NCBI GenBank assembly: GCA_905178155.1
Contig: CAJINV010000002.1
Span: forward strand, 9,373,412 to 9,437,411
Length of the DNA: 64,000 bases
From: Amoebophrya sp. A120
Lineage: Eukaryota; Protista; Dinoflagellata
Direction: 5' to 3'
This document shows positions 1-60,556 of the stretch, in pieces. How positions within the stretch are numbered: position 1 is the first letter of the stretch; every line of letters begins with the position of its first letter. A program made the translations under genes and the position numbers. The notes beneath the pieces are model-generated. The model did not search any database. It was not told the DNA's origin and was given only the letters and a program-made list of their open reading frames with translations.

Positions 1-3000
1 CGATTCCGGATCCAAACTGGTCGCGGTCCGCCGCTGCGCAGGTGTTCCTCGAGATGACCTACGGCGGGCCGCAGAACGTGCGCGAGGCGCGGTCCAAGCT
101 GGGCCTGCCCGACTTGCCGATGAAGGGCACGCCGGTATCCGCCGACTTGAACAATGCGGATTCTATATCCTGAGTAAAAACCTACCCACACCAGAGTCAG
201 GATGGGGATTTTGCAACACAAACCTAGGAGTTTTGTGAGTCACGCATGACAAGTTGCACTATGCAGTGTAGTGCAGGTTAGCAAGTGCATCCGCATCACA
301 GATTCATCTGCTCATCCTGTTCACAGCATCACAAATTCCAAAACACGACTGGAAATGGCTCTCATGGGGATGCGCATTACAGGTCTTCCTGTCTTTGCAA
401 ATCTGCATTACAACTCTGGTGTGGGTACGTTTTTCCTCAGGATATTCTAGTGCGATGAAATCCCGCGTGGCCGTGCGGCCAAAGAACCATAGACTCCTGC
501 TATCAAATGCAAAAATGTCTGGGTCTGGAAGATTCCGAGACTTGTCATGCAGATTTCCATGATGCATGTCTTGTCATCTGGAATGCAGGACCTAGCATGA
601 CAGATTCTGCGGAATCCCTATCATGCTTATCCTGCATGAGAACCTTCTTCTCAACTTCGTCAAAAGTGGGCAACTTTTGGCATTCATGCAACACAGATTT
701 TTGCATGATCCAGAATTAGCATCACAAGCTCCAACCTTCCAGACCCAGACATTTTTACATTTGATACCTGCCCTTCCTCGACGAAAATGTCCTGCCCATC
801 GTCGCGGAGTTTCTGTTACCAAGTGCAAAAATGTCTGGGTCTGGAGGGATGCAACTTGTGATGCTGCATTTGGATTCCAGAAAAATCTGTATTGCATGAG
901 TAGCAAAGGGAATGCAATTTTTGCTACGCTGAGAAGGCATTTGTCATGCGGTATAGGCATCAGGAAGCCCTCGCAAAATCTGTGACGCTAGGGCATGCAT
1001 CACAGACATCAGGAGTCATGCAAAATGTGCATGACATCTTCGAGACCCAGACACTTTTGCATTTCATATCTGTTTGGCGGCAGCCTACTGCGGTGCATGG
1101 AAGTGTCTCCTTTGTGGTTTTGCTGCTTTCTGGACGTGCTGGACAAGTTGGCAAACCCGATCGACCTGGCCTTCAAAAACGTGATCGACGCCACCGGAAT
1201 ACTGCAGCTGGAGTACGCAAGGACGGACTGGTCGCCGCTGCACGTCTGCCAACCGGGCGTCAGAATAGACCGGGTGCTCATAGCCAAAGTGCTGCCCAGC
1301 TACGCGGGCCACACCGTCCGCCTGTCGTACGAGAGCGCGTATGAAAGTAAGTAGTTTCTTTTATGACCAATAGATACCAGAAGACTTTTTGACACTCTGT
1401 AGCGTCTTCTGACGCGTGTTGTTGGCATCCATGTATTTGTGTGTCAGCATGCGGGCCGCACTTTCGCAATCAATTCTTATTAGAGCGTCATGTTCCGCCT
1501 ATGTTCACGATTTTTGTCCCCTTTTCTTGCGATTGCAGAAAAGATGTCGTGAACTCTACAAAACGACAGCCGTTCCTTCGCAGCCGTATCTCCGGAAAGC
1601 CGAGCTAGCGATATGCACTGCAAAAGTATCGTACTCGTATACATGCATTACAAATTTCCTCAGCATGAGAAATAAAATTTGTAGTGCGGATTTACCTTGA
1701 GATAAAAATTTGTGATGCATGATTGCAATTACTACGAGTGCAATACTTTTGCACAGGATAAGCGAGCCAGATTTACGATTCCCACTTCCAGTTTGATATT
1801 TTCAGCGGAAGCAGGAACCTTTGGATCCACAAAGACATTTGCAGGTTCTTTTTTTTCGATTTCATGCTAAAGATAGAAGATAGATAGCAAGTGAATTGCC
1901 ATTTTTTTTATTTCTACTCTATGCCATGCAATGCAATGCCAATGCATGAATACGTCAAAACAGGTTCCACGGTGACGAGACCCGTGTTGCAGCCTTGCAG
2001 AACATCACGCCCGTTCGATATCCTCGGGGAAACTTGAGTCTTTTTTTTTGTGCATGTACTTGCTTTCTGTACTATGTTGAATGCGGTCCAATACTTCTAT
2101 CTGACGCACTGATTTCATTTGTGTTGGTTTGCTGCTCGATGTAGCTGGTACATCCACTGATGCTGCTCACTCTGCGTCTTTGCAATTTTAAGTGATGAAG
2201 TGTACACGGCAACAGAAAGTACTGACTCATCCTTTCTTCTCGTGGATACCGCCGTCGGCGACCGCATCGAGATTGCTGTGAACCTGTTCATATCCTGTGC
2301 AAAAGTATCGTACTCCTATTGCAATCCTTTTGTTAACGTAAATCCGCATTAATTTCTCATGCTGAGGAAATTTGTAATGCATTTATAAATACGAGTGCGA
2401 TACTGTTGCAGTTCATAGTTCAATGCATATGGAAAGACCGCGATAAAATCCATAAAGTGGAAACCGCCAAGGACTGCCTGGGCACCGAGCTTCCGGTAAA
2501 TAAATAAACGAATGTATGATCTATTGCCATGCACAAATAAGTGAAAGCATCCACCACGTTGCATTCTGTTCTTGATGTTGTCGGTGACGGTGTCAGTTGA
2601 TGAACAGAAAAGCAAAAGAAAAACATTAATTCACTATGAAAATCAGCTCCTGCCCGGTAGAAGAAGAACACGACGACTGGATGGATTTCGATTCCTTCGC
2701 CGCGAATTCAACGGAGCGGCTGCAAAACCCAAACTTCTTCGGGCCCCAGTTGCAGCATCGCTCCACGGAGTATGCTGGGTACTATGGAGATGCAACTGTG
2801 ATTTACTTACTTACTGAATTTGTATTGTTCGCGCCCCAACAAAAACTACGACTATTGGTACCGATACAATGAATATCATTCGTATGCCATGGCCATGATG
2901 ACTTGACTCTACTTGGTCTTCACTGCATAATCCAGAAAAATACCAAAAACTTCTCCAGCCTCGACGTTGCTACCAGCCGTTCCATTCTTCTCGCCAAAGA

Positions 3001-3846: not shown

Positions 3847-4950
3847 ATGCCATTCTTCGATCTACTCGGTCTCGGTGGTCATCACGACCTTCTAAGCGAC
3901 CACGCCAGTGCCTTGCACTCCAACTCCGGCCACGCAACCTCATTCGCGCGTATAATACCGTTCTTGTAATCGCGTTCTTGTATAATTTCCTAGGTAGTGC
4001 TGCGTAATATTGAGAAACTTTTCGCTCATGTTGTGATGCACGTCGAAAAATTTGAACGTAAGTACCAAAGGGAACCAACTGGCACAAAAAACTCACAACA
4101 GAGGACGGAAGTCTGGAATTTCGGGAATACTATGCGGCCGCTTGCCCCCACTGCAAGCATTTGGAACAACCCTGGCACACGGCGGAATCCCAATATCAAG
4201 GTACTGAACTGAAAGAGTGGCTCTTGCCAATCAAAACATTGATGAAATTCCTCTTCCATTTAGTACTACTAACTAGCCCAACGTCACATAGTACAAGCTC
4301 AAAAAAACCCTCTCCTCACAGGCCCGGTGAAGTGGACGCAGATTGAGTTATCAAATGTAAAAATGTCTGAGTCTGGAAGAATGCAAGATTTGTGATGCAG
4401 GTTTTCCATGACCCATGAGGTCTGGAATGCGAGACCTAGCATGACAGATTCTTTGAGGTCTCTATCATGCCTTTCCTGCATGAGAAACTCCCTCTCAACT
4501 TGGTCAAAAGCGGACGGCTTTTGGCACTCACGCAACACAGACTTTTGCATCATTTAGATTTAGCATGACCACAAGTTCTAATCGTCCAGACCCAGACATT
4601 TTTACATTTGATATGAGTGCAACGACGACAATTGGAACCCGGTTTCAGCCAACGTGGAGAAGTGCGCGCCAATTAGCGGGTTTCCGACCATGAAGATGTT
4701 CCAGGATGGGAAAGAGGTCGACGAGTACCACGGCGGGCGCACCGCGGACGACCTGCTGAATTACGTGAATAACTTCGACACCTCGAAGGTTTCCGCGCAA
4801 ACCATGTTACCGATGCTCCCCGCGGTCTTTGCGGCGAAGTTTCTCTTCGGAGAAGACACGACGAAGGAGGGGGAAGACGGAAAAGAAGAAGGAAAAGCTG
4901 TCTTGAAGAGCCCGGAAGTGCGCGTGGAGGACGTACAGAACTTTTTCTAG
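3847..4950 (+). CDS. Thioredoxin/PDI-like single-domain oxidoreductase (CPHC)
   Basis: Spliced product contains EYYAAACPHCKHLEQPW...GPVKWTQIECNDD...ISGFPTMKMFQDGKEVDEYHGGRTADDLLNYV, i.e. CxxC plus the cis-Pro GFPT motif. The start exon at 3847 is tentative. Confidence 0.8.
4349..4613. mobile_element. Introner-like TIR element, family A
   Basis: Family A TIRs, direct repeat TGAGT. Removal restores QIE-CNDD. Confidence 0.92.
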
Positions 4951-6098: not shown

Positions 6099-9000
6099 AT
6101 GTCGGCCGTGTCGCTGCTTCACGGCACCCTCCCAGGTGATTCTGCCCCGATCATGGCGCCTGACAACCTGCCCAGCTCGTGGTCACTGGCAGACACCATG
6201 AAGGCAGCACTCTCATCGACAGCCAACCAGCTTGTCCCCACGCCGCGCCGTCTCGCAACCCAGGCGCAGGTCCAGCAAAACCGCAACGCCATGCTTCTCG
6301 ACGAGAACGACCACGTTGGTGTCAGCTTTTGGCTGGTCGCATCCAGCATGTCGGCGTGCTCGGTGTTTTTCTACGTCCAGGCTGCTTTGGTGCCAAGGGA
6401 GTGGGCTGTGAGCATGCTGATTGCCGGGAGCGTCACCGCGGTTGCCTTATCAAATGTAAATATGTCTGGTTTTGGACGGATGCGAACTTGTGATGCTCGT
6501 GCTCCGTCGGGATTCTACAAAAATCTGTGTTGCATGAACAGCAAACGAGGTCCAGTTTTTGCTAATTGTTTGCGAGAGGGCATTTCTCATGCGGTATGTG
6601 CATCAGAAAGCCCTCACAAAATCTGTGATGCTTGGGCATGCATCACAGACATCAGGACTCATGCAAAATGTGCATGACATTCCAGACCCAGACGTACTTG
6701 TTTGCATTTGATATGCCTGGATCCAGTACGAAAATCAGAAGGACGTGTGGCAAGAGAGCCGCGAAGCACCTATCGTGGCCAGATATATGGACTGGTACTT
6801 AGGAGTACTAGTAAGTACTTGCAGCGGCAGCACTAATAGGGAACTTCAGTTTATACACACAACTTCGGTGCCGCCAAATACGAGTGAAAACCACAAAGCA
6901 TTAGCATATCACTTTGTGAACCCCCAGCAAAAAATGCAAGAAATAGCGATTTTATCTTTTCCGCACAACATTCTAAAACAGGATCATCACGGTGCCGCTT
7001 CAAATCCTGGAATTCTACATCCTTTTGAGCGTCGCAACTCCTCCAGATAAAGATCCGGTTAGCCTGGCTTTGTGCGCAAGATTAGTGGGCTCCGGCGTCG
7101 CCATGCTGGCATTCGGGTAAAAAAGAATGTCCTGAAGTTTTTGTTTGTTTCTGTGTCCTGCAAGGCCCAACGAACTTATTACTATGCTGGAGCGGCCTCG
7201 GCCACGGTCAGCATTACTAGAAGTTTCATGATTCTGAAGTGTAAGCAGGCTACCCTTCGTCTTCGCGAATTCATTTTGAAACAATAAATCCAGTTACATG
7301 GGCGAGACAGAGATCATGTCGCTCTGGCCGGCTTTCGTCACGGGATGCGCGTGCTGGCTGTACATTGTCTGGGAACTGTACTACGGGGAGGCAGCGGGTT
7401 TGGCAAATCAATTGTCTGTCGACGAAGCAAAGAAGTTCCTCCAACAGATGGAAGAGCGGGAACAGGCGGAATTGCGCGTAGCAGAGCAAGTACTGATAGA
7501 ACAGTCAAGGAAGGAAGAAGAAGCCGGTATAATCGTGCTTTTACTTATTTTGATTTTTGCTCTTGTGGGCTTTTTCCGTCGTGCTCGTGCTACAATTGGA
7601 TGATCAACGTGCAACAGTAATATGAGTACAGTAGCCTCCGCTATTATGGTGCGATAGTAGAGCTAAGAAAAAAGCAAATAAAAACTCTTCTGAATTAACA
7701 GAAGCGGAGAGGGAAAACGGCGCCCGACCTGGAAAGGATCTCGACACTTTTTTGACGACCGGGTCTCTTGAGGGTAATATGGTGCCTAAAGTGGGACCGG
7801 GGTCTGTGAGATGTTGCGCCTGAATTTTTTTGCCTACAAATGATGTCAGAGCGTGACACGATGAATAACTTTTCATGTATTGGAGATGATAATCTTTTCT
7901 TTGACACGAAAAGTAAAAGCACAAGTGATACGTATGTATTTCATTCTCTCCAGAAAATTCCCCCGTCCCTCAAAAACCCCTTCCATAACCGCACCAAAGC
8001 GCTCGAAGCCAGCACCAAAAGCAGTGGTGATCAAGCGAGACAAGTATCAGCTGGACGAGCGAGAATTTGTGAAGCCCATCGCCGAGCAAGCGTTTGACGC
8101 CTTGCGGATGATCTTTCTCTTCGGTTGGGCGATCTACCCGGCGAGGTAGGTTATGATTCATTTTGGGAGTTCTTTTCTAAGTAGGATATAATTCATTTTT
8201 TCTTCTTGCGCCATCTCGAGGGGCAGACGTAGGGCACGAAAATGTCCGAGGATCATGCTTGGTCGTGCAATTTCCCAATCATCTTGAAGCTATGTACGTC
8301 TACCTCTACCGCTCGTGAAAGAAACAGAAAATACAAATACCCCGTAGTTACGCGTGGTACCACCTCGGCGACGACGATAGCAAGGAGGACCGGTCAAATG
8401 CCATGAACGCACTGTACAATCTCGGCGATCTGGTGAACAAGATCGCGTTCGGTATTGCCGTCTACTCCGCCGCCGGCAGTGAGGAGCAAATGCAGAAGCA
8501 GATGGAGCACCGGGTCATCCGGTTGGAAATGCGCATCATGAAGGACTGGATGCAGCAGCTGAAGTCCATGGGCATCGTGCACCGGAAGTTCCGCGGCGAC
8601 TTGAAATCCTGGCTAAACCTGGACGGGGAGAGCCAACAGAGCCAGGCAAACAACAAGGAAGTCGGGGGCAAACCGCGGGTGGCGCCGCCGACGGGAAACA
8701 ACGGAGCGGGGGGTAGCGTCGTCGGTGGCTCCAGTTTAGTGGGCAGAATCGGACCCAGTGCGGCCACGAGCGGCGGCTTTGGCGCAGGGAAAGCAAATAT
8801 GATGAATCCACGTAAAAACAATGCTGCCTAATATACTTTTGCGTAGATGCAACAACTTGCTCAAGAATCACATGGTTGTACTTTAGGACTTCTAGAATTT
8901 TTACCTAGCATCTCCATGATCTCGCAGTGGAGGTCCTACTTAGCTCAAAAAAGAGGAAGTAGTGTCGACACATTGCTCTCGACAAGCAGCTATCTTTTCA

Positions 9001-13002: not shown

Positions 13003-16000
13003 ATGGAAGGCAAGTTTTTCTGCTTTTCTGAGCCTTCGCTCCACTTGACCCCGGCACCAGGTCGTAAAAATATTAAAGGAAGCAAAACAAAAAAGAAGCC
13101 TTTGAAAGGCTACAGCGCCGACATTGACGATGAATCCGAATTCCTCGACCACGAGAGCAGTTTATTTTCGCAAGAGCCTCCAGAGTTTGGAGAAACGAGA
13201 AATTTTGAAGGCGGTGCGCCCTCTGCCGCAGTGTTACAAGAACAAGATCAACATGCAGCTGCTCAAAATGACGACGGCTCTAATCATGCACGTGGACAAG
13301 AAACTACACGTACGGCACTGCAAGACGCCGACAACGGCACGCGAGACGAAAACGACGAAGGTGAACCGGAACCCCGTCAGCAACTACATAGTTCGAAAAG
13401 TAGGGTTTATTTCGACCTTCAAGGCGGCAGTTTTACACCGATCGGCAGAAAGACGAAGACGCTGCCGGATTTCACAGACAACCGATACAAGGATGGTGCG
13501 AACAAGCGACAAAACACCGCTATCTCACACCGACCGCACGCCACGGAGACGGGGGAGGATGTGGATGTTGTCCCCACGGCAAATTATATCACAGACCGCG
13601 CGCGAAGAACATACTCGAATCAAAACCTCGTGGCCCCTCTGAACAACTTTTCCAGTGACCACGATGACGCAGCTGCTGTTCGTCCCGAGGATATTGAACC
13701 GGACCACGAAAGAACAACGCGAGTTTCCAAAGTGGGTGTGGTATCGCCGAGAAGTAGCTCGACCTCTTCCTCGTCGGAGGGCAACAATCACGAGTTCGAG
13801 AACCTAGAGGATGAGTCTTTCGAGTTCGGGCACCTGTGCGGCAAGGGCGGCTCGGCGGAAGTCTACGAAGTAATGAATCGGAAGGGCGAGAAATTCGCCA
13901 TGAAAGTATGGATTGCAAATATGTCTGGGTCTGGAAGGCAGTAACTTGTGATGCTAAGTCTACACCCTGAAAAAATGTGTGTTGCATGACTGCCAACAGT
14001 TGTCCACTTTTGACCAAGTAGAGAGCGAGTTTCTCATGCAGGACCGGCATGATATAGATCTTAGAGAATCTGTCATGCCAGGTCCTGCATTCCAGACCTC
14101 ATGGGTCATGGAAAATCTGCATGACAAGCTCCCACGCTTCCAGACCCAGACATTTTTGCATTTGATAGAAAGTCGTGTCCGCCAAATCGACCCGGCAGTT
14201 GGAAGGCTTCCTGCAGGAAGTCCGGTTGTTGGAATCCCTGTCGTCTAAAACTGCTTCTAACGCTTGTGCGGCAACGGCAGGAGGTCGAGGTGGGAACAAA
14301 AATTGTGCGGTGGATTTGAAAATGACAAACCCAACGCCCGAAGAGGAGTATGAAGCGAAAGCGGAACTCCGGCGGCAGCGGAAGGAGATCCACCGGTGCA
14401 TCATTCGGCAGTTTGCGAGTCAAGCGTTTTACGAGAGCAAAAAGTTGTACATTTTGCTCGAGTACGCGGAGTGCGATTTCCACCACTATCGACAGGAAAA
14501 ATCCCCCCTCCCCATATCAAAACAGAATTTCTGATGCTGGATTTGTGTACACAAATCAGCTTTGCATTGCGGGAGCGCGTTCCGGCTAGATCCCCAGCCT
14601 AGGTAGGGGCGTATCGGTCTAGTTGCTCAGCATGGCAAACGGCTCCCCTTTGGGCCCAACAGCATGACAAATCGCTTCCATAATGGGGGCGAAGCTTCTG
14701 GCTTTGTCTTCTTGCAAGACAAATGCGATTTGTGACCTCAAATCAGCAGCGCAAATTTTCGGAAGCATGCCTTTTCGATGTGGGGAGGGGGATCTTTCCT
14801 CTTAATAACCACTACCTGAAATCCTTCGAGAAGGGGATGCCGCTCCCGGAACTGGTGCACAGTTTCCACCAAATCCTCCAGGCGGTGAAACTGATCCACT
14901 CCCACAACATCGTGCACTTTGACCTGAAGCCCGCCAATTTCCTGATCGTGAAGAACAAGATTAAGCTGTCCGATTTCGGCCTGGCCCGCCGCATCGAGTC
15001 CGACGCCACGCACATCAGCCGGAACGGGCACTGCGGGACCATCCGCTTCATGTCGCCCGAGGCCTTTTACCAGGCCGAGAACGCCAAGGCGGAAACGTCC
15101 ATGAAGCTGAAACCTAGCACGGACGTCTGGTCCCTGGGGATCATCCTGTACCTCATGCTCTACTCGCAGACCCCCTTCCAGCAGTTCGAGTCCATGCGGG
15201 GCAACCGGGTGATGTTTGCGATCGCGGACCCGCGGATGCGGGTGTTGTACCCCAAGTTGCCCGACCGGTTTCTCATTTGCACGAAAAGTCGCGTCCTCCC
15301 CCCGGGCTTTGACTACAAAAAAGAGGTGGAGGCCGGCAACTTCGACGTGGCGAACCGCTATCTTCAGGTTGGGGTGCTGCATGTCGTCGCGTTGCTACAG
15401 TACTGTCTCAAGCACGATGCGGAAGAGCGGGCCAGCTGCGGGCAGTTGCTGGACTACTGGTCCTATTTGCTGACGATTCCGTTAGGCCCGTCTTGTTCTA
15501 CTTGTTCTGTTGCGGAAACTGGTACCAGTACGACCCCCGCAGAAGTACCGGGCGGGGAGCAACCAGAACCCAAATCGCTCGTACAACTACCAACACAGCA
15601 TCAAAACGCGACCGCCTCGCAAAAAGTCCAGTTGTTAATGGAGAGAAGCGTTCATAATTCCCCAGATGAACGAACTGCAATCTTTGTGCAGCCGGCCCCA
15701 TTCCCGCAGGGCGACAAATTTGTGTCCTTCGACGACGAAGACGATCTGACGACAAACTACCACTCAAACTCCAGCGGCAGTGAAAACACTGTAAATGGCA
15801 CATCTGCGACGTCCGAGAGTAGAAGCCAAAATGCAAGTAACAGCACTGATAACAATTCTATGACTCTTGAACAATCGGGAAGAGAAGGGAACAAGACCAC
15901 AGCTGCAAGTTGCAGCGTCGGGGTCGGATCGAGCACCACTTCTACGTCAAGCAAGAAAAAGACCTTTTACGCGAAGATTTTTCGGGTGAAAAAGGGGAAA

Positions 16001-43663: not shown

Positions 43664-46234
43664 ATGACGGAAGCAGAAGCTGCGGTCTGCAGGAGGACTT
43701 CTGCAGCGAAAAAGTCGCGCTTGTGTTTCTCTTCGTCCATTGCAGTACTACGGAATTTCTCAGGAATTGCGCTGCTCGTTACTGCTTCGACGTCCACCAT
43801 ATTAATCACGACCGCGAGACCTACACGTCGAGGACTAGAAGCGAAGAATGCTCTCTCGTCCTCCTCGGTCACTGTCACCCCGCCGCAGCCTGAGTGGACG
43901 CAATGGTTCGAGGTATGCATTGTAGAGATGCCTGGGTCTGGAAGATTGCAAGACTTGTGCTCCTGCTGTGCTGGCGCGACTGCGATAGATAGGCGTAAAT
44001 AGGACCTCTCGCCTGTCATGCAAAAAGGCAGGAAGCGGAGCACAAATCACATAGCGGCTCAAAAACTTGTCGTGCTACCTCTTGGTAGCGTAATATTGCA
44101 GGGTGGCCGTCACTTACTCTTTACAAGCTTTCTTCATGTACAACAATATTCCAAACCTAGACACATTTCAATTCCATTCGGGGTGCCCGTCGACCACTTC
44201 GACGACGCGGCGGACCGCCCGAGTTTCAAAATCAAGGTCCTGGGCCTCTCGAAATTCGCCGCAAAGACCGGCCCGATCTTTTTCTACTCGGGGAACGAGG
44301 GCAGCATCGGGGGTTTCTGGAATAACACGGGTTTACCTTTCTCCTGGGCCGCGGAGTTTCAGGCCGACATCGTGTTTGCCGAGCACCGCTACTACGGCTC
44401 CTCGCTGCCCTTTGGCGACAAGTCGTTTGACAGCCCGGAGCACATGCAGTACCTGCGCGTCGAACAGGCGATTGCGGACTACGCGAGATTCATGGAGCAG
44501 TACAATACAGAAAACAAGAAGGTCGTGGTAATGGGCGGCAGCTACGGGGGCATTCTGGCTTCCTTGATGCGGCAGAAGTACCCCACCCTGTTCCACGCGG
44601 CCATCGCCGCCAGCGCGCCCATCCCGCAAGCCTTTAACCTCAAGACGGAAAGCGACAACCAGATGACCTTCTACGAGAGCGTCACGCACTCGGCCAAACA
44701 GGTGTCCCAGACCTGTCCGGGCTTCGTGCGCCAGGCCTTTCAAGAGCTGGAAACCGCCTTCCAAGCAGCTGCGCGACGAACAAGCAGGAGCGCTGGTGTT
44801 GAGGCAACTAGTACTTCATCGAGGCCAACTGAAAGTGAAACCGCGACGACCACTACACTGGACGAGATCCGGAAAAAGTTCCAACTGTGCCAAAACAGCC
44901 TCAAGCCGTCGGAGTGGAGTCATTTCATGCAGTACGCGCGCAACGCCTGGACCGAGATGGCCATGTGCGACTACCCCTACGCGACCGACTTTCTCGCAAA
45001 GCTCCCCGCCTGGCCGATCAAGAAGGCCTGTGAACTCGTTGACGCCGGGGGCAAAAGTGGAGATCCCGTCCAGGGCCTGGCCGATGCCGTGGCCTTGCCG
45101 TACCAGAGTGAGCCAGGTAAATAGTACCCACTCAAATTGTGGCCGGCAGCAACAGATTGATACATCTGTCGCTATTGTCTTCAGAAAAAGCTGCAGGCAC
45201 TACAACGCAGATAACTATCATAACCAGGATGAAGAAAAAAGCGATAACAAATCATCTACTCTATAACTCCTTCGAGGTACCTGCCTCGACATGTACAAAC
45301 TATTTGTCGAATGTGCGGACCAAACCGGGTGTGGCACGGACAACGACGCAAAAGCTTGGGACTACCAAATGTGCGCCGACATGAACATCGTGGTAGCGAG
45401 CGACGGCGAGAAGGACATGTTTCCCAAGAGAGACTGGACGCTGAAACATTTGGAAAACTACTGTGTGAAAAAATACAACGTCCTGCCCCGACCCACCGAC
45501 ATGGCGGTGCGGCTTGGCGCGTATTTTGTGCTTTTTTTATGAATATATGTTTATGTGCTTTTGTGACTGTCTCCTCGGTGTAAGAATAGACATTAACCTC
45601 ATCGTTTATGTGCTTGTTTGATTACGTTCGTATGAATGTTGTAGGACACCTCTGTCTCTAATGTGGTGTCAGACAAGAATGACGGCTGGGACCGCGTGTT
45701 GAAGTGGATGAAGCACGAAACTCACCAGCAGCTTGCAAATTTGATCTGTCTTCAGGCAGAAGTGAACTTGTCCTTGATTTTTTCAAAACACCTCAATAAA
45801 GGTACCACTTTGACACGCAGGGAGCTGGCAGTATCTCCAACATCATCTATTCCAATGGGCTGCTGGACCCGTGGCACCCGGGCGGCTACTTACAGAATTT
45901 AACCGACTCCGTGGTTGCCCTGATCATTCCGAATGGCGCACACCATCTCGACTTGCGGTTGCCCGATGAAATTAACGACCCGGCGGATGTGGTGGGTGTG
46001 AGACTGCAAGAGAAAAAACTCGTGAAGATGTGGCTGGGTAGTAGTACAGCGGAGAAGCAGGACATTAGTGATGGGAGCATCAATATTGCCAAAGAGCCCG
46101 AGCGGCCCCTCGTTGGCGGAATTTCGACTGACGGGCATCGGAGGCGAGGCGACGAGCGACAGCATCAAGTCCTCGATGAGAAAGAAAAAATACAGGATGA
46201 GGACATCGACAACAAAAGCATATTCTTCGTGTAA
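43664..46234 (+). CDS. Peptidase S28 family (lysosomal Pro-X carboxypeptidase / dipeptidyl peptidase II-like)
   Basis: WFEVPVDHF, GPIFFYSGNEG, VFAEHRYYGSSLPFG, GGSYGG (catalytic Ser), MCDYPY, SNIIYSNGLLDPW (Asp) and GAHHLDL (His). Start codon tentative. Confidence 0.9.
43914..44178. mobile_element. Decayed family A element
   Basis: TATGCATTGTAGAGATGCCTGGGTCTGGAAG ... TTCCAAACCTAGACACATTTCAATTCCATT, flanks CGAGG/CGGGG. Removal restores WFE-VPVDHF. Confidence 0.8.
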
Positions 46235-47204: not shown

Positions 47205-50200
47205 ATGACCTCCCCGTTGTCCACCGGTCCAGCCACCGCGTTCCTGCGCCAACTACCCGTCGCAGCGAAGGAGGGGGGTGTGCTCGTCACCCGTGACAAT
47301 TTTGACCGGCTGAAGCCTCTGAAGAACTTTGACGAATTGTTGGCGCAGGCGAGCGATGATATCCCGGCTTTTGACGTCAAAGCCTTTCAGGAGGTGAACC
47401 AGCTGTCGGACGAAGCTGCTGACAGTAACAAAACGAAAAGCAAGAATAAAAGCAGTGACTTCTCTTCGGTGACTGCTCCTCATGAGCTCAATTCATCTCT
47501 CCAGCGGGCCATTCGGGACGCTTCGGGCGGCGGCCCTGCTGCGCAGCCGACTCTTGTCCGTGGGGCGAAGAAGAACCAAAACAAGCCAAAGAGGACTGTG
47601 AACGGCAAGCCAGTGAAAGAGATCTTGGACAATATAGCGAAGAAAAATCAGCAAGCAGGCGCTGCGGGCCAGATCGATTTTTGCGGAGTTACACTCGCAG
47701 CGAATAAAAATAGTAGTGCGTTTCATAAGAACACGCCAACATTTTTATCGTAAGGAAAAATCCCCCCTCCCCATATCGAAAACGTATCCGTCTGAAAATT
47801 TGCGATGCGCATTTGCGACCTCAAATCCTGTCTGTCTTGCAAGAAGGCAAGTCCAGAAAGCGTTCCGCATTTTGCAGGCGGTTTGTCATGCTGTTTGGCT
47901 TAGAGCATACACGTTTGTCATGCTAGGCGCCTACGTCAAAACCTCTCGACTGAGGCTTGACATATGCCTGCACTCCTCTACTGCAAGACAAATCTGATTT
48001 GTGTATGGAAATCCAGCATCAGAAACTTCGTTTCGATATGGGGAGGGGGGATTTTTCCTTTTGATAATTTTACCGCGTCACGCCGGACCATATTCTCCTG
48101 GACACGCATATGGATGTGTCAGGATCGAAATCGACAAAATCGAAATAATTTGTGATGCATAAAATGTAGGACACTGAAGGCCTGCATTGGGGAGCAGGCA
48201 AATGAGACCGATTGCAAGCCTGTTTAGGGAGAGGCGATATGCTGCCAGAGTAGCACGACAGGAGCAACCTTCTTTGCCCAAACAGCATGACAGACTGGAT
48301 GTGGGTGCTCCCGGAATTTGTCATGCGCCACTTGGAAACTGAGGCTCCAACTGGCATCGATTTTGTGCGTCACAAATTTTTCGACTTTGTCCATTTCGAT
48401 TCTGACACTTCCATAACGCAGCTGGAGCGTGCCAGGAAGGCCGTAGCGACGGTGGAAGAAAAACAGAACCTCGCGAAACAGTTGCGAGAGGAAAAGAAGA
48501 GTACAAAAAATTCGAAAGCGGGAGTTCTTGCCCATAGTAGTACGAAGGAGAAGAACTCGCATCAAGATGAACTGGCCAACTTTGCAGAGATGTGGCGCGC
48601 GCGCGACAAGGCCTTGACGGAGCTCGAGGAACTCGGAATGCTCGACGGCGAGGAGTTGTTGCGCAAAGCAGACCGGCCCGAGTATTCCTACTACAACGGA
48701 GCAACGATGATGGGAGGTGGCATTCCGATAGCGCCTGGCCAGAAGCCTGCTTCCGCGGAGGATGGCAAAAACCCGAGTCGGCTGTTCTCGTACGCGCTGA
48801 ACTTCAAGCGGATCGAGGAGTTGTTGTCCAACGAGGCCCTCCGATTGCAGGACCGCCTGGACGCCATGGAAGAGAAGCAGATGCAGCAGTCCGATGAAAC
48901 CGAGGGGGGAGTCAACGCGCTGCTGCCCTCCCTTAGCGTGGAGGTGCGGACCCTCGTGGGCGACCTGTGCTTCCACATGAAGCAGGCGGCCTTCACGGAG
49001 ACCAATGGGGTCTACCACGAGAAGAACTACACCGATAGTGCTGCCACAACCCCGGCCGCGGCGGGAAACAAGAGAAAGGATAAAGCAACATCCCGTGCTG
49101 AGGATCTTCACGCGTCCGCGGGGAGATCTTCGCCAACTTTTAGCGACAGCACGACGACCAAGACTGGCACAACTCTAGTGAAGAAGGCAAAGCAAGTGAA
49201 AACCATCACGCTGGCAGACTATTTCAACCACTCCGTCGAACCGCACGCCCACACAAAAGCGCCGCGGCGCGCCGACAAAATGAGCTTGGACGTGGAACTG
49301 CAGCATTTTACCCGCGTCAGCCTCGAAGAAAAACTTTTGAAGCTGTTCGAGATCCTGCTGTGTGGGCGTGAGGGCATTTTGGAATTGGCGGAATTCGCGA
49401 TGACAGCTACTACGGGCGAACAAACCTCCACGCAGGTGCAAATCACGAATGGGAACAAGAATGATGACGTCGCATCCGGGAGTTCCTCCTCTCGCAGCCC
49501 CTTCTTCTCTCCTCCATCCCGCAGCACCCCGGGTTCGCAAGCAGATAATAACAGCCCTCTCGAGGGCAGCATAGTCAAAATCAGAGGAAAATTCCCCCAC
49601 ATGCTGCCAACCCCAACCACGGAGGACCGCCGCGCGCAAGAAACGAATTTCAGTGACGCGTCTTTGAAGCTGGAGGACTACTGGGACATTGGGGTGGCGC
49701 AAACGACCGCGTTTCATGACGTGTTGATCCGCCTGGTCGCAAACTACTTTTCCGATCTGGAGCAGCAGAAGCGCGATGTGGCCGCTACTTCCTCCAAGAA
49801 GAACAACAAACCTAACTTCCTCGACTACCACGTGAACGACACGATTGACGCGCTGAACCGCCAAACTATGAACAGTCGTCTCTCAGTCTCCGAAAAGTGT
49901 CGCAAGGACTTTGCGCGGCGGGGAGAAGGTCTCGCGACCGCGAGCTTGCTGACGTCGGGGTTGCTGCACCTGTTTTTGTTGCACGACGCAGTGGTGCGGA
50001 AAATGATTCAACCCGCTCGGTGCTTGAGCGCCAGAAAAGAACCGTGTATCAAATTGAAGGAGTCGAAGGACAAAGGCATCGGCAAGAATGGCAAGAAAAG
50101 CAAGTCCTTCGAACGGATGGAAGTTCCTCCCCCGGATCTGAAGAAACTGAAAACGGGTGACTTGTTCCGCATTGTATCAAAAGTAAAAATGTCTGGGTCT

Positions 50201-53175
50201 GGAAACTTGTGATGCTGAGTGGCGTCTCATGATGAGGCTAAAGATGCTGGCTCAGCATGACAAGTTTCTGAGCTCCTAGGTGTTGCCTATTCCGCATGAC
50301 AAACTGCGCTTCTGCATCACAGAAAAACGGAGCTTGTGGGTAACGTGCATGACAGATTTAAGAGTCATGCCAGACAAGCATGACAAACATGAATTCTTCC
50401 AGACCCAGACATTTTTACAGTTGATACATTGGCAGCGTTCACCGAACCTACGGCTGGCGGTGTCTCCCCTACAACGACACCCGCGCACTGCTGTATGGAT
50501 GTGTCAGGATCGAAATCGACAAAATCGAAAAATTTGTGATGCATAAAATGTACGGCACTGGAGACCTGTATTGGGGAGCAGGCAAATGAGACCGATCGTA
50601 AGCCTGACTAGGGGTATGCAATGTGCTGCCAGAGTAGCACGACAGGAGCAGTCTTCTTTGCCTAAACAGCATGACAAACTGGATTTCGGTTCTACCCAAA
50701 TTTGTCATGCGCCACTTGGAAACTGGATTACAAGTGGCATCCATTTTATGCATGGCAAATCATTTCAACTTTGACGATTTCGATCCTGACATTCCCATAT
50801 GCTGCTGCACTTGACCGACGAGGACTTCGAGGCGGGAAGCTTGGTGCCGTCGTCGGTGCTACAAAAAATAGCCGAAGCACAGGAAATATCCTGTGCAAAA
50901 GTATCGTACTCGTAGTAATTGCAGTTATGCATTACAAACCTCTTTCTCATAGGCAAATCCGCATTACAAATTTAATTTGTAATGCTGGGCCAATTTGTAT
51001 TGCAATTTATACTAGTACGATACTTTTGCATTTCATAGGAAACTCAGAAGAACAAGGAGTCAACTTCCGCGATGATGACGGGCACGAATAATTCTTTGCC
51101 GGGCAAAGGAAATAAAGGGAAAAAGGGGAAGAAGGCCGCGAAGCAAAAAGAGCTCGAACAAGAGGTGAGGCAAATGATCGAGGACACTATACTGTACGAA
51201 AAAAAAAGCCGGCAAACAGCCTGGAAACAGTCCAGCTTGCGCATCTACGCTTGTGTCACGCTCCCGACGGAAATAACGACTTCTTCTTCTTCAGCCTCCT
51301 CTTCCACGACGACGGGTTATAACTGCAACCCTGCAGACGCTCTTGCGGACTTTGACGCTTTGCTAGAGGCCAGCACGGATCTAGCGCCACCAGCGGCTCG
51401 GGACTACAAGATTGTTGGCTATGTGATCCTACCCACCAGTGCCACGAAATGGAACCCGCGTCTCGACCAAATGATCGCTGCCGGAGACCGAACAGGATCA
51501 TATAACGGGAAGAAGCCCGCTCCGGGCCAGACGCAGGTGTGGTTTTCGCCAGACGAGACGTCGGTAGCTATGTGGATCGAGGCCGAAGATCGCAGCAAGG
51601 CGTCGGGTATGGATATCCTCGCCCTGCGCGAAGAAAAAATGCAGGAGGTCGACCTCGATTACCGACATGATCCGCATGCAGGAGCTCGAGCGCGACTCCC
51701 GGGTCAACAAATCCAGACGAACATGATGAGCATTACGGCGGCGACAGAGTAAAACGATTTTTCCTCCTGTGATTTGATGAAAAACGTTGTTGTTTTCACC
51801 AACCGTTATATTTTTGATGATACTTGCCTAAATCAGTACACTTGTTGCGAATATTGACCTGCCAGGAGCTTACTCGCAAGAATAAGACAACAGCTGCCTG
51901 AAAAAAATCATAATCACCCTCACCCGCGAATTCTGCAGGTTTGCGAAGCTGATCAGCAACCGAAAGCAACTGGCACTGAAGCAGATCGAGTGGTTTCGGC
52001 GAACCTTCCCGGAGCTGCCCCTTTTCAACAACACCTTGTTCCACATGTTGCGCACGGTCCTGCAAGGGTGCACCCTGGATTTCCGGTACCTCGGCCTAAA
52101 GACGGTGTGGCAGAGACTCGCGATGACGTATCGAGCTCCACCGCAAGCGTCCGATAATTCCAAAGCTGGCTCGTTAAAGGACCGAGACGTGAAAGGCGAG
52201 AAGGGCGCGAAGGACAAAGGTAGCAAGGGGCGTGGCAAGAACAAAAAAAACGAGGAGCCCAAGAAGAACGAACAGTCGACCAGGAATCCATGGATGTACA
52301 ACTCTGGCGGTGAAGCTTCACCATCTGGGTGGGGCACGTGGTCGTCATATAATTACGAAAGAACGCATGATCCCCGAACCAACGGCGCAACTGGCTCGGG
52401 AACGAACAGCCCAACCGACGTCGAGTCTCCGCCCGTGGTGAACTTTTCCGCGCTCCAAAACCACAAAGACACCCGGGCGATTTCTGGCGCCTCGCCACTG
52501 TGGCGCTTCTGTCCTGCGGAAATCGTATCGGGTGTCGGCGCAGGCGGGGTTTCTCTCAGCACCAATTTGAACGACTTTCGCAATTTCTACGATTACGCCG
52601 ACCAGCTGCAGAAAATGATTTTGAACAAGGACCAGAACCGGGCCCGAAATTCAAGTTACGACGACAATCAACAACGCCACGACGATAGTGATTACTTCTA
52701 CGGCAATGTTGCAGGAGAGGGCATAGACGACGACGTCTATAGCGAGGACCAAATAAATCAGGAACACGAACAACACAAATCCGTAGACCAGCTGCAGTTC
52801 ACACTCGCGATTGCGGATGCGCAATCCCTTGTGGAACAGCAAGAAGCGAACCCGCCTGGCGGGTGGAATCCGTATCGCGACGGAGCCGGTCTGCCCCCCG
52901 ATGCTCAACAGGTCCTTGCTGATGTTGTACCTCCGGAGTTTTTAGATGGTCAGCGTGCCCACTTGTTGCGGCACAATGCTCTCGCGCATGCCAGAGCGCT
53001 CGGGGCCGAAGAGAGGGAGAGACACGGACGCGGGCACTGGGGACTCGATGGCCAATGGCATGAGGATGATCACTTCTCCGATGAGGATGAGGACGACTAT
53101 TCAATGGATGATGATTATAATTACCATTGGGCACAAATGCTACAAGACGAGCTCGGCATCGAGTTCTTTGGTTGA
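47205..53175 (+). CDS. Large hypothetical protein
   Basis: ORFs 47205, 48287 and 51072 join in frame after removing five TIR elements. A probable GT-AG intron from ~51750 links to ORF 52036. No recognised domain. Confidence 0.65.
47746..48066. mobile_element. Introner-like TIR element, family D
   Basis: Family D TIRs, direct repeat ATTTT. Removal restores PTF-YRVT. Confidence 0.9.
48109..48415. mobile_element. Introner-like TIR element, family E
   Basis: TATGGATGTGTCAGGATCGAAATCGACAAAATCGAAA ... TTTCGACTTTGTCCATTTCGATTCTGACACTTCCATA, direct repeat ACGCA. Removal restores LDT-QLER. Confidence 0.9.
50175..50426. mobile_element. Introner-like TIR element, family A
   Basis: Family A TIRs, direct repeat CATTG. 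Removal restores FRI-GSVH. Confidence 0.9.
50494..50799. mobile_element. Introner-like TIR element, family E
   Basis: Close relative of 48109-48415, direct repeat TGCTG. Removal restores ALL-LHLT. Confidence 0.9.
50887..51037. mobile_element. Introner-like TIR element, family C
   Basis: Family C TIRs, direct repeat GGAAA. Removal restores AQE-TQKN. Confidence 0.9.
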
Positions 53176-55030: not shown

Positions 55031-55323
55031 AAAATATTTTCGTGGGGAAACATGAAAGAACTCATCCGTTTGCTTCTCTTTGTGTCAATCTGATTCTTAG
55101 CAAGAAAGTGTTTTCTTTTGGTGTGATTTTCCCTTCGCAACAGCCAATCTCTCTGTTTCATTTCTAGGTTCTGTTTCTGTAGGTAGTTCCGTCATAGACT
55201 AAGTAATCCGAATTTGTTTTTTTATTGCTTCTCTGAGATTCATAAAACTCGATGGTGTTCGAACGCAACACTTCAATCCTCATCGTAATCTTCTAGCAGC
55301 TTGAGTCGAAAAAATTCGTCCCT

Positions 55324-57143
55324 TCACCTCTGCATTCCGAAGATGTTTGCCCCGCGTCGGTTGAGAATGAAGCACAGTTCCTTGCAAGTGACCGTGTTCT
55401 TGCCTTTCAGATCCAGGAGGCAGTGCAGGTCGTGCAGGATCTCGGACATCAACTCGTTGAAGGTTTCTTCGATCATGGGGTAGGCGTTGGTCGCCAGCCG
55501 CCGCACCCCGCCCCGCCGCGCCAGGCGGCGGATGCCCGCGCGGGAGAGTTTCTTGTGTTGCTCGATGTTGTTGAACCCGAGGTTCTTCATCATCTCGTCG
55601 CGCTGCTGGTGGTAGCCCTGGCTCTGCAGGAACGTATCAACTGCAAAAATGTCTGGGTCTGAAAGGATGCGAACTTGCCATGCGTGTTGCGGATCATACA
55701 AAAATGTGTGTTGCGCGACTTGCAAAGGGTGCTAAGAGGGCATTTCTCATGCAGAATAGGCATCACCAAGGGGCTGCAGAACCTGTGATGCTATGCCCTG
55801 CATTCCAGCCTTGGTGTTGGTGGAGCTTGGAAAAACTGCATGAAAAATCTCGGAATCTTCCAGACCCAGACATATTTGCAATCCATAGAACGCGGGGTCG
55901 AGCAGCTCCTCGTAGGTCGGCTTCGGCTGGTCCTCCCGCTTCACGAGCGGGTTCTTCCGGTGCATCCGCGGCATGAAACTGCCGAAGCTGGGGCCCACCG
56001 CCTCGTAGGTGGCGCCGTACCGGGACGCCCGCCCCCGCCCGCTCTTGTAATCTTCCGGAATGCCGTGCCCCCACGTGGAGCGGTCGGCCTCGGGCACGTC
56101 GTTGTAGCCCCAGGTGGGCGGCGCGCGGTTCTTGGGCAACGGCGTGGACACGATCTCCTCGTCCTTTTCCTCCTCGTCCACGTCCATCGGGTCGTCGTCG
56201 ATATCGCCCTCCTGATTGTAATATCAAATGCCAATATGTCTGGGTCTGGAAGAGTGTTAACTTGTCATGCAGGTTTTCCACGACCCAGGAGGTCTGGAAT
56301 GCGGGACCTAGCATGACAGACTCTGTGAGGTCTCTGCCATGCCTATCCTGCGTGAGAAACTCCCTCCCAACTTGGTCCAAAGTGGACAGCTTTTCGCACT
56401 CATACAACACAAATATTTGCATGGTTCGGATTTAGCATGACAAGTTGCAATCTTCCAGACCCAGACATATTTGCAATGCATATGTAAACATCGTTGGTCC
56501 CAAAAAAACCGCCAGTTCTGGCTGCACTCTTTTTATTTTCGTCCTGCTCGTCCGTCTTCGTTTCTCCAAACGACCCGCCGAAGAGATCGTTTTCTGCCTG
56601 CTGCCGGCGCTCCTCGTTTTTCCTCTGCGCCTCTCGGAACTGATCGAAGACACTCTTTTTCTGCTGCTTCTTCTTGTCACTCTTCTTGCCGCTCTCCTGT
56701 GATGGAAAGTATTCCCTGAAAATCTTCAACCATCCCCAGCATCGCCATCCACTCTGTACATGCCTAGAAAAGTAGGAGCCGACTTTGGTTGCTCCATATT
56801 TTGCATGATCAATCTTCACTGGGGATGGTTGATTTTCAAAGAATAGGGAAAACACTGGACTGGCACCGTTTTGCGGTGGTGCAGAACCTGCTAGTTGGTC
56901 CTCTGTATCGAGCTCCGCGAGCAGCCCCTCCATGGGCGCAAACACGTCGTCGATTGTGAAGTTTTTCTGCTTTTGCATTTCTTCTTCCCGAATTCTGCGA
57001 TCCAAAAACGCAACGCCGGTGCTTTCAGGAAATTGTGGAGCAGGCAGGCCCTGTGGTCGGTCGTTGCTGTAGTAAGTATTGTTGCCCGGACGGCTCGAGG
57101 ACGAGGCCGCCCCGCCGCCGGAGGGGGCGAAATCAAAGTTCAT
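55324..57143 (-). CDS. Divergent histone H4-fold protein with long N-terminal extension (~384 aa)
   Basis: C-terminus LSRAGIRRLARRGGVRRLATNAY...KNTVTCKELCFILNRRGANIFG aligns to H4 (ITKPAIRRLARRGGVKRIS...[22 protein letters not shown]). Joined in frame to upstream ORFs by removing the elements. Confidence 0.82.
55635..55887. mobile_element. Introner-like TIR element, family A
   Basis: Direct repeat GAACG. Removal restores DPAF-LQSQ on the minus strand. Confidence 0.9.
56222..56482. mobile_element. Introner-like TIR element, family A
   Basis: Direct repeat TGTAA. Removal restores NDVY-NQEG on the minus strand. Confidence 0.9.
56710..56845. mobile_element. Short introner-like TIR element (distinct family), direct repeat decayed
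   Basis: TATTCCCTGAAAATCTTCAACCATCCCCAG ... CTGGGGATGGTTGATTTTCAAAGAATA. Length 136+5 = 141 nt, frame-neutral and stop-free on the minus strand. Confidence 0.65.
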
Positions 57144-58564: not shown

Positions 58565-60556
58565 TTACTCCTCTGCCGGCGCGGACGGGGGCGGGTTCAT
58601 GCCCAGGACCCGCTTAATTTCGTACAATGGTACACAGGCGACCTGGCGGCGGTGCTCCTCCTCCGCGGCTTCGTCCTCCCCGGGCGCAAAACACCAGTTG
58701 TTGCAGATCTTGTCGCAACCCCAGATGATGTAGCAATATGCAATACAAATTTCCCGTACAGCACGTACAAAATAATATAAATTGGAAGATATGTATCTTC
58801 ACAAATTTCTTACTCTCCAATTTCGACTGTAACGCTTGTAATGCTGGCTAGGATCGACGGCAAGTTTTGTCATTGTCTGTCATGCGGACACCGTATTTTT
58901 ACATCCGTCGACGTGTACGGCGAATTTACTGTGGATAGGCAGTGGTGCACGTACATGAGGCAGCGGAACAGCCAGAAGCCGCCGTAGCCGACGCACTGGT
59001 GGAAGACTTCGTACTCGGGCTCGTCCATCGGCGCGTGGCACTTCTTCCCCTTCAGGCCCTTCTCCTCGGAGGTGAGCTTGCGAAACCCAAACTTCCACGT
59101 GGACTCGCAGACCGGAATCTTGTAGTAGTCCGCCAGGAAGGGGATGTTGTGGATAAACCGCTCGTACCGCACGAAGTTGCACAACTTGTCATCTTCGTCC
59201 TCTTCCCGCGTGATCTCAAAACCCACATCCATACCCACGAGACCGACCTGAGTGAAGAGCGCGCTCGATTTAGATGTTTCATTTGTCGTGTTTTACACAA
59301 CTAAAAGCTGGTGGTGAAGAGTGGAGGTAGACTGGAGATGTTTTGTTCTCATCGTAGAACTAGAAGATCATGTTGTTGTCATTCTTGTCAAAAATCTAAA
59401 AAAAGTAAAAATTGATCTTATTATCTACATAGCATCTGCTCTCGTCCATGGTGAGGAGCGCTGGCTTCTCGTCCGAAGGCGGCACGCCGTCCCACGTGAC
59501 TTGGTCCATGACAAACTTGAACAGCATGGGCACTGGCATCATCACCTCCAGCAAGTCGTGAGCCTCGTAGAACTCCGCGAGCGCGTCCGGATCCTTGCCG
59601 CAGGTGAACCGGTCATCGATGATGGTGGAGTTGGTGGACCCAAACTGGTACTGCAAGAGGCAGTTCGCGCCGATGAAGCCCGCGATAAACTGCGGCGACC
59701 GGAGAAAGGACCCCGTCGTGTGTATTGTGAGGAAAAATCCCCCCTCCCCACACTGAAAAGGTATGCTCCTAAAAATTTGCGCTGCTGATTTGTGCCTGTT
59801 TTCCTCCCGATATCCGCAGGCCGGTCGCTGCTGATTTGTGACCACAAATCCTGTCTCTCTTGCAAGGGGGCAAATCAAAAGAATCCGCCGACTTATACAG
59901 GCGATTTGTAATGCTGTTACGGCTAGATGACAGGCCTCTGCTATGCCAAGCACCTACGCCGAAACACCCCTTCGCAGGCTTAGGCTTTGCCTGTAGTGTC
60001 TCACTGCAAGATAAATCCGATTTGTGTACACAAATCCAGCATCACAGATTTCCGTTTTGATATGGGGAGGGGGGATTTTTCCTTACGATAGTGTGCTGCT
60101 TCGCGCCCTCGCCGCCGGCGGACTCCGCCGTTGCTGTGGCGAACGCCTTGGATTGCGAATAGAACGGGCTTATCAAATGTAAAAATGTCTGGGTCTGGAA
60201 GATTCTGAGACTTGTCATGCACGTTTTGCATGAGCCATGATGTCTGTGATGCATGCCCTAGCATAACAGATTTTTTGAGGGCTTCTTGATACCTATCCGC
60301 ATGACAAATGCCCTCTCCGCGTAGCAAGAATTACATTTCCATTGCTGCTCACGCAATACAGATTATATTGAAATCCAAATGCAGCATCACAAGTTGCATT
60401 CTTCCAGACCCAGACATTTTTACATTTCATAGGGCTGTTCAAAAAGCCGCGCTGGTTTGCGTTGCCGCTTGCATTTTTCCAGAACAAAGCCGCCTGCTGT
60501 TGACCGTGCTGCCTTTTCAGCACCTGCTGCGCGCCGACACGGGCACGCGATAACAT
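58565..60556 (-). CDS. Hypothetical protein with possible mitochondrial presequence
   Basis: Basic, acid-free N-terminus MLSRARVGAQQVLKRQ.... ORF pieces join in frame after removing three elements and one GT-AG intron; ends ...LGMNPPPSAPAEE*. Confidence 0.65.
58737..58937. mobile_element. Decayed introner-like element (distinct family)
   Basis: TATGCAATACAAATTTCCCGTACA ... TGTACGGCGAATTTACTGTGGATA, flanks AGCAA/GGCAG. Removal joins VHHC to (Y/H)IIWGCDK. Confidence 0.7.
59723..60090. mobile_element. Introner-like TIR element, family D
   Basis: Family D TIRs, direct repeat GTGTG. Removal restores KQH-TTGS on the minus strand. Confidence 0.9.
60171..60431. mobile_element. Introner-like TIR element, family A
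   Basis: Family A TIRs, direct repeat GGGCT. Removal restores LNS-PFYS on the minus strand. Confidence 0.92.

What the first reader, a model, noticed from the sequence alone, without database searches (positions are those of the whole stretch)
166..60431. About 30 TAT...ATA inverted-repeat elements from at least six families act as non-canonical introns
Seen: each element has 20-35 bp TIRs and a 5-bp direct repeat whose sequence differs at each site, consistent with a target-site duplication. All interrupt coding sequence, including kinase, thioredoxin and rhodopsin core motifs, and removing the element plus one repeat copy restores the frame every time. Most cannot present GT-AG ends on the sense strand, yet ordinary GT-AG introns occur in the same genes. 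Known: introners with inverted and direct repeats are described in Amoebophrya; to my knowledge their removal mechanism is unresolved. Inference: a precise, non-GT-AG removal system coexists with the spliceosome. No transposase is encoded in the window.
Basis: partly seen in the sequence, partly recalled or inferred. Interest (0 to 1): 0.88.

Follow-up and report, generated by a model that had tools for sequence, protein, structure and literature searches.

The report
Ruler-spliced transposon introns in Amoebophrya
These are already-published transposon-derived introns of a marine parasite that lack the usual GT-AG ends yet are cut cleanly out of its RNA; what this window adds is that the cuts likely fall at one fixed distance from the element's ends, a handle on a removal machine nobody has identified.

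Summary
Observation confirmed: 28 elements with terminal inverted repeats, 22 with a perfect 5-bp direct repeat; 0 of 28 can show GT-AG in any frame-neutral register. A host exon is 100% identical to an annotated Amoebophrya sp. A120 protein, and the ends match the introner elements published for A120 (Farhat 2021), so the system is already known. Transcript data remove 14 of 14 tested elements as element + 5 nt; DNA-like contigs keep them. New here: six elements with decayed direct repeats all fit one cut register, 1 nt before TAT and 4 nt after ATA in transcript direction (two exact; chance 0.013, or 0.047 on the five RNA sites). Intron = N-TAT…ATA-NNNN, so U falls at +2. The cut does not need the direct repeat, which argues against a reverse-transcription artefact. 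Farhat left the border unknown. The machinery was not tested: a re-tooled spliceosome reading the element ends (about 0.5) is slightly favoured over a nuclease-plus-ligase route like Euglena or SOS splicing (about 0.38). A prediction test in a related strain was inconclusive, and a G·U pairing test was negative.

The parts
166..444 (+). Element, own family, direct repeat TTCTA perfect
   Evidence: frame open 178 codons after removal; no RNA test
501..766 (+). Element, family A, repeat CCTGC perfect
   Evidence: no RNA test
817..1068 (+). Element, family A, starts TAC, repeat TCTGT perfect
   Evidence: no RNA test
1612..1760 (+). Element, family B, repeat AGCGA perfect
   Evidence: local frame only
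2291..2417 (+). Element, family B, repeat GTTCA perfect
   Evidence: local frame only
4349..4613 (+). Element, family A, in thioredoxin-domain gene, repeat TGAGT perfect
6448..6713 (+). Element, family A, in rhodopsin-like gene, repeat TGCCT perfect
   Evidence: Pfam rhodopsin weak
13907..14167 (+). Element, family A, in kinase domain, repeat GAAAG perfect; an in-frame GT-AG option (+3 nt) exists, untested
14487..14807 (+). Element, family C, in kinase domain, repeat ACCAC perfect
21203..21513 (+). Element, family C, repeat CACTT perfect
   Evidence: absent from annotated protein P0001
21566..21962 (+). Element, family A, repeat GGGCG perfect; in-frame GT-AG option not used in the annotated protein
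22158..22496 (+). Element with no 5-bp repeat left (0 of 5); cut 1 nt before and 4 nt after (intron 22157-22500)
   Evidence: only 1 of 144 cut pairs reproduces P0001; annotation-based
22715..22950 (+). Decayed element, repeat TTCCT perfect
26042..26270 (+). Element, own family, repeat TCTGC perfect
   Evidence: no RNA test
40951..41256 (+). Decayed element, repeat 2 of 5; exact cut (intron 40950-41260)
   Evidence: joint 40949>41261, no slide, runs X3 and X4
41629..42099 (+). Decayed element, repeat 4 of 5; allows registers 3-5
   Evidence: joint 41626>42103
43914..44178 (+). Decayed element in peptidase S28 gene, repeat 4 of 5; allows registers 3-5
   Evidence: joint 43911>44182
47746..48066 (+). 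Element, family C, repeat ATTTT perfect
   Evidence: joint 47740>48067
48109..48415 (+). Element, family D, repeat ACGCA perfect
   Evidence: joint 48103>48416
50175..50426 (+). Element, family A, repeat CATTG perfect
   Evidence: joint 50169>50427
50494..50799 (+). Element, family D, repeat TGCTG perfect
   Evidence: joint 50488>50800
50887..51037 (+). Element, family B, repeat GGAAA perfect
   Evidence: joint 50880>51037
55635..55887 (-). Element, family A, in histone-fold-like gene, repeat perfect
   Evidence: joint 55629>55888
56222..56482 (-). Element, family A, repeat perfect
   Evidence: joint 56216>56483
56710..56845 (-). Element, repeat 2 of 5; allows registers 4-5
   Evidence: joint 56704>56846, slide 1, runs X3, X4, X6
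58737..58937 (-). Decayed element, repeat 3 of 5; allows registers 1-4
   Evidence: loose ends of raw RNA reads at 58735 (81 reads) and 58939 (35 reads), run X10
59723..60090 (-). Element, family C, repeat perfect
   Evidence: loose end at 60091 (44 reads), run X10
60171..60431 (-). Element, family A, repeat perfect
   Evidence: loose ends at 60177 (25) and 60432 (80), run X10
45117..45276 (+). Ordinary GT-AG intron in the same gene as element 43914
   Evidence: joint 45114>45275
45521..45801 (+). Ordinary GT-AG intron
   Evidence: joint 45520>45802
51749..51938 (+). Ordinary GT-AG intron in the gene with five elements
   Evidence: joint 51748>51939

Best explanation
These are short inverted-repeat elements, likely non-autonomous DNA transposons, that sit in Amoebophrya genes and are cut out of the RNA together with 5 flanking bases, likely at a fixed register (1 nt before TAT, 4 nt after ATA), likely by a re-tooled spliceosome that reads the element ends instead of GT-AG. 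Shown: structure, 5-bp repeat, removal from transcripts, no GT-AG ends (confidence about 0.95). Inferred: insertion by an unidentified transposase making a 5-bp target duplication (0.9); the fixed register (0.85); a spliceosome taking the element's TAT as intron positions +2 to +4 and placing the 3' cut by distance from the paired or protein-bound 3' arm (0.5, untested). Because 1 + 4 = 5, removal deletes exactly one duplication's worth of bases, so any insertion site and either orientation is silent.
For: Removal: 11 of 11 elements in 40801-57300 skipped as element + 5 nt; 3 of 3 in the one gene covered by raw RNA reads. Register: 40951 exact 4; 22158 exact 4; 41629 and 43914 3-5; 56710 4-5; 58737 1-4; chance of one shared register 0.0125, five RNA sites alone 0.047; it holds on both strands. 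5-bp duplication: 240 of 346 arm pairs in a related assembly, against 4, 2, 1 at 3, 4, 6 bp; no base bias in the repeat; both orientations. For a spliceosome: U at +2 in 28 of 28; the terminal base is lost 8 times at the 3' arm and once at the 5' arm (window 3:0; related loci 5:1 of 146; found after looking, one-sided p about 0.02 by hand); Farhat Table S4 lists nine top A120 classes, all with T at +2, and nine A25 classes, all TT; poorly pairing old elements are still cut exactly; U1 was not detected in A25/A120 but was in a strain with GT-AG introns; tunicates show a spliceosome can be re-tooled (abstract).
Against: Only six informative sites, one from annotation rather than reads; the exact RNA site (40951) rests on two runs of one sample. 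Runs X3, X4, X6 are assembled contigs flagged 'RNA is a guess' and drop rare variants, so precision per molecule is not measured. A prediction written beforehand could not be tested: the loci are a related strain, and the A120 orthologue matches none of my six options at L039:3329-3608, where the repeat is 8 bp; if A120 carries that element, this would count against a ruler. No base preference at +1, -2 or -1 (G at +1 in 37 of 140) is hard for known spliceosome chemistry (recalled knowledge). The +2 U may be only the transposon end. No branch point, lariat or factor was examined.
Confidence: 0.5

Rival explanations
1. Same elements and register, but removed without the spliceosome: a nuclease recognises the paired arms, cuts 1 nt 5' and 4 nt 3' of the stem, and a ligase such as RTCB joins the exons (a precise form of SOS splicing, or the Euglena-type system).
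For: No sequence demand at +1, -2, -1; arms pair in most predicted folds (20 of 28 with 13 or more arm pairs is my count); Euglena introns use fixed spacers from a paired motif (passages); SOS splicing is triggered by paired terminal repeats.
Against: SOS splicing is imprecise and leaves indels, unlike the joints here; no excess of G·U over A·C mismatches on the transcript strand (84 against 86 in 139 elements); element 58737 has no arm pairing in its best fold yet is removed; 5'/3' asymmetry of the terminal base.
Confidence: 0.38
2. Reverse-transcriptase template switching across the 5-bp repeats at the base of a hairpin creates the joints; the real mRNA keeps the elements.
For: Hairpin plus short direct repeat is the classic setting (recalled); all RNA evidence here is cDNA.
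Against: Joints with 0 or 1 base of shared sequence (40951, 56710) fall in the same register; 25 of 28 elements carry stops in all three frames inside conserved domains; the same contigs remove every element.
Confidence: 0.03
3. The elements are excised from DNA (as ciliate internal eliminated sequences are) before transcription.
For: TA-like ends and short direct repeats resemble such elements (recalled).
Against: Run X1 contigs span 41401-47770 and 56457-59749 with no gaps at depth 43.8 and 41.8, like their flanks, carrying four elements that RNA lacks. X1 may be the assembly's own sample, contigs drop rare variants, and a stage-specific excision is not excluded.
Confidence: 0.04
4. The elements self-splice.
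For: Strong predicted hairpins.
Against: At least six families share only the ends; lengths 127-471 nt; no Rfam match; decayed copies still work.
Confidence: 0.03

Closest known systems
Amoebophrya sp. A120 introner elements (Farhat et al. 2021, PMC7789003)
   Same: Same strain by protein identity; ends TAT + 7 variable bases + AAA; short direct repeat, 5 bp in Fig. S19 legend; about 240 nt; non-canonical borders mixed with GT-AG introns; no transposase inside.
   Different: The paper calls the borders variable or unknown and sees no clear dinucleotide signature; here they fit one register. Figures were not visible to me.
Euglena nonconventional introns (PMC12501133; review PMC11282704)
   Same: Precise non-GT-AG removal, paired ends, fixed spacers between cut and paired motif, slidable direct repeats, unknown machinery.
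   Different: Motif CAG/CTG with spacers 3 and 5-6 nt and a purine after the 3' cut; here TAT/ATA with 1 and 4 nt and no base preference seen.
SOS splicing (AKAP17A, CAAP1, RTCB; PMC12779559)
   Same: RNA-level removal of terminal-inverted-repeat transposons without GT-AG.
   Different: Multiple cut sites, indels, many out-of-frame products; here one exact product per site in the data seen.
Spliceosomal introners of Polarella/Symbiodinium (bioRxiv 2020.10.14.339549) and Fritillaria non-canonical introns (PMC13326754)
   Same: Transposon-made introns; splice sites drawn from target duplication and element end; relaxed spliceosome.
   Different: Those still need G at +1 and AG, or other set motifs; these need no base from the target site.

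Membership tests
Amoebophrya A120 introner elements | Host is Amoebophrya sp. A120 | tested here: met
   exon 20399-21196 100% identical to annotated A120 protein P0001
Amoebophrya A120 introner elements | Inverted repeat starting TAT, seven variable bases, then at least three A | tested here: met
   pooled ends of 278 elements: A at positions 11-13 in 494, 520, 525 of 556 (sample seeded by family A and TAT required by the finder); family D lacks the A run
Amoebophrya A120 introner elements | Direct repeat of 3-5 nt at the borders | tested here: met
   22 of 28 perfect 5 bp; 240 of 346 in related loci
Amoebophrya A120 introner elements | Repeated in the genome, in families | tested here: met
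Amoebophrya A120 introner elements | Removed from transcripts with non-GT-AG borders | tested here: met
   14 of 14 tested; 0 of 28 GT-AG
MITE (non-autonomous TIR DNA transposon) | Short, terminal inverted repeats, fixed-length target duplication, no coding capacity | tested here: met
MITE (non-autonomous TIR DNA transposon) | Cognate autonomous element with transposase | tested here: inconclusive
   none in 21 window ORFs or in four long candidates from 411 kb of related loci; no whole genome held
U2 spliceosomal intron | GT (or GC) and AG terminal dinucleotides | tested here: not met
U2 spliceosomal intron | Lariat intermediate, branch point, snRNP dependence | not testable with these tools
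   needs bench work or lariat reads
SOS splicing substrate | Imprecise cuts in or near the terminal repeats leaving indels | tested here: not met
   single exact joints, no indels listed at 5% in raw reads; contigs hide rare products, so not firm
SOS splicing substrate | Dependence on AKAP17A, CAAP1, RTCB and on arm pairing | not testable with these tools
   no proteome held; indirect G·U test negative
Euglenid nonconventional intron | N3-CAG … CTG-N5-6 signature | tested here: not met
   ends are N-TAT … ATA-N4

The most novel reading that the evidence does not exclude
Amoebophrya A120 runs a second, precise splicing code in which the transposon end itself is the signal (cut 1 nt before TAT, 4 nt after ATA, no base taken from the host), carried out by a machine that is neither the ordinary spliceosome nor imprecise SOS splicing, and exactly tuned to erase a 5-bp target duplication in tens of thousands of exons.
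Probability: 0.35. Interest if true: 0.85.

Novelty: already known. Interest (0 to 1): 0.5.

Why it matters
The elements and their removal are published, so the finding itself is not new. The removal mechanism is still open in the papers I read. A fixed register turns it into a testable code: it gives the true intron ends for lariat or circle hunting, predicts which insertions are tolerated (duplication lengths of 5, 8, 11 nt in exons), lets the annotation of about 30,000 elements be re-aligned, and allows reporter tests of the kind done in Euglena. It would also explain how a transposon can flood exons at no cost: the cut offsets sum to the duplication length.

Tried and rejected
No whole genome was held, so no genome-wide count or transposase search. 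Pattern scan of viral contigs: 0 matches. Rfam: 0 matches. Earlier findings of the scan: none. Runs X9 (35 reads laid) and X11 (0 laid) gave no junction test; run X1 filled the joints table with repeat-made joints, so X10 junctions were read from loose ends. Base preference in the direct repeat (GT or AG recruitment): none (NNAGG in 3 of 140). Complementarity of repeat positions 1 and 5 extending the stem: 54 of 241, chance level. G·U against A·C test for RNA-level pairing: 84 against 86, negative. Long elements with a transposase frame: four distinct candidates, none with one; two were pairs of separate elements. Prediction test in L039 and L028: not testable, related strain. Non-5 duplications: 8 and 77 nt fit a ruler (both 2 mod 3), one 7-nt low-complexity case does not, and of 18 elements without a 5-bp repeat 12 show no exact repeat at all: too few to use. 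Two loci (L060, L012) looked better with element + 4 nt; on inspection the frames are ambiguous, left unresolved. Resemblance of N-TATCC to the U12 donor (recalled): set aside, Farhat reports no minor-spliceosome snRNAs. Paper searches for a published register or a link to SOS splicing/RTCB found none; subscription journals are mostly not covered, and Farhat's Figs 3, S19-S25 are images I could not see and may bear on the register.
Full report
Observation. An unbiased inverted-repeat scan and a TAT..ATA scan found 21 elements with a perfect 5-bp flank repeat against 0-3 in each of 10 shuffles. BLAST and reading the sequence added seven decayed copies, 28 in all, 127-471 nt long. The repeat is perfect in 22, partial or lost in six. 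None of 28 gives GT-AG in any of the six frame-neutral registers; 25 of 28 hold stops in all three frames. The stretch 26.3-40.9 kb has no element. Removing them restores long frames: 2886, 5482, 1473, 619, 386 and 178 codons. Four elements (1612, 2291, 4349, 6448) were checked only locally.

Organism and prior art. Exon 20399-21196 is 100% identical to an annotated protein of Amoebophrya sp. A120. Farhat et al. 2021 (PMC7789003; read: abstract, sections 10-12, 16, 25, passages, supplement part 3 and figure legends) describe A120 introner elements with inverted repeats starting TAT, seven variable bases, three A, direct repeats of 3-5 nt, 29,850 copies in 1954 families, U1 undetected, mechanism open. 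The pooled end consensus here matches. The finding is therefore already known. Gozashti 2025 (PMC12130899, passages) reports A120 elements with terminal repeats and integrase-like frames, a lead for the mobiliser that I could not test.

Removal from RNA. Contigs of three runs flagged as probably RNA (X3, X4 one sample; X6 another) gave 14 joints in 40801-57300: 11 of 11 elements, each skipped as element + 5 nt, and three GT-AG introns; the intergenic bins 54001-55100 had no depth, which supports their being spliced RNA. X6 lacked depth at the first three elements; X11 laid nothing. Raw RNA reads of X10 covered one minus-strand gene and showed, as loose ends, removal of 58737, 59723 and 60171. 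The annotated protein lacks four more elements. Ten elements have no transcript test. Run X1 behaves as DNA and carries 41629, 43914, 56710 and 58737 intact in ungapped contigs at flank depth; it may be the assembly's own sample.

Register. With a perfect repeat the cut can slide, which is why the border was left open in print. Decayed repeats fix it. Counting k, the bases of the upstream repeat kept in transcript direction: 40951 k=4 exactly, 41629 and 43914 k=3-5, 56710 k=4-5, 58737 k=1-4, 22158 k=4 as the only 1 of 144 cut pairs matching P0001 (the annotation was transcript-guided). One shared register would arise by chance with probability 0.0125, or 0.047 without the annotation-based site. 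The intron is then N-TAT…ATA-NNNN. It holds on both strands and without any repeat. At 21566 an in-frame GT-AG alternative exists and the annotated protein does not use it. Farhat Table S4 lists nine top A120 classes, all with T second, consistent with this though their borders depend on the aligner.

Related loci. A pattern scan returned 136 loci, 411 kb, of another assembly, a related strain by protein identity of 78% and 61%. There 240 of 346 arm pairs have an exact 5-bp repeat; 3, 4 and 6 bp give 4, 2 and 1. The repeat has no base preference and elements lie in both orientations to the gene. Loss of the terminal base is 8 to 1 at the 3' arm, a post hoc hint that the +2 U matters. Against my reading or neutral: no G·U excess (84 against 86); the prediction noted was untestable and the A120 orthologue matched none of my options at a site with an 8-bp repeat; two loci had ambiguous frames.

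Mechanism. Shown: structure, duplication length, RNA-level removal, no GT-AG. Inferred: transposase insertion; fixed register; the machine. I put a re-tooled spliceosome at about 0.5: U at +2, 5' bias in conservation, exact cutting of poorly pairing old copies, U1 undetected in strains with such introns but present in one without (PMC12005148, passages), and the tunicate precedent (PMC13326754, abstract). A nuclease and ligase stand at about 0.38: no demand at +1, -2, -1; Euglena uses fixed spacers from a paired motif (PMC12501133, passages; PMC11282704, passages); SOS splicing removes such transposons but imprecisely (PMC12779559; abstract, first quarter of main text, discussion). Reverse-transcription artefact, DNA excision and self-splicing are each 0.04 or less. 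Dinoflagellate introners in bioRxiv 10.1101/2020.10.14.339549 (passages) still recruit G and AG, so they differ.

Verdict. The fixed register was not found in six paper searches, with the limits that subscription papers and Farhat's figures were not visible. Interest 0.5.

Noticed in passing
window 61031 and 57668, minus strand: Raw RNA reads end at 61031 in a sequence like the dinoflagellate spliced leader (match recalled from memory; it looks two bases shorter in the T run) and at 57668 in poly(A), bounding one transcript with long untranslated ends.
   Followed up: no
window 53200-55100: AT-rich gap between converging genes, no RNA depth at 54001-55100, with a 173-bp tandem duplication and a perfect 50-bp palindrome at 54917-54966.
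   Followed up: partly
window 12990-23545 and 24809-42483: Two neighbouring giant kinase frames (2886 and 5482 codons) with similar kinase motifs, likely tandem paralogues; the annotated P0001 covers only the last 1053 residues of the first. A single exon of about 11.4 kb carries no element.
   Followed up: partly
window 55295-57150, minus strand: 386-codon frame ending in a histone-fold-like region (weak CENP-T_C hit, E 0.04) behind a long acidic and basic extension; H4-like by eye.
   Followed up: no
window 6100-8830: Rhodopsin-like gene in a non-photosynthetic parasite (weak Pfam hit) with a C-terminal extension.
   Followed up: no
L039:3329-3608 and L039:4990-5301: Elements flanked by 8-nt and 77-nt duplications instead of 5; both lengths keep the frame under the fixed register.
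   Followed up: partly
L005:4330-4653, L046:55-363, L084:301-552: Elements with near-perfect arms but no flank repeat at all, possibly recombined between copies.
   Followed up: no
window 59489: G>A difference in 23 of 388 raw RNA reads of run X10; allele, error or editing not told apart.
   Followed up: no
window 62970-63800, minus strand: RBBP4/CAF1C histone-binding WD-type gene with no element in the part seen.
   Followed up: no
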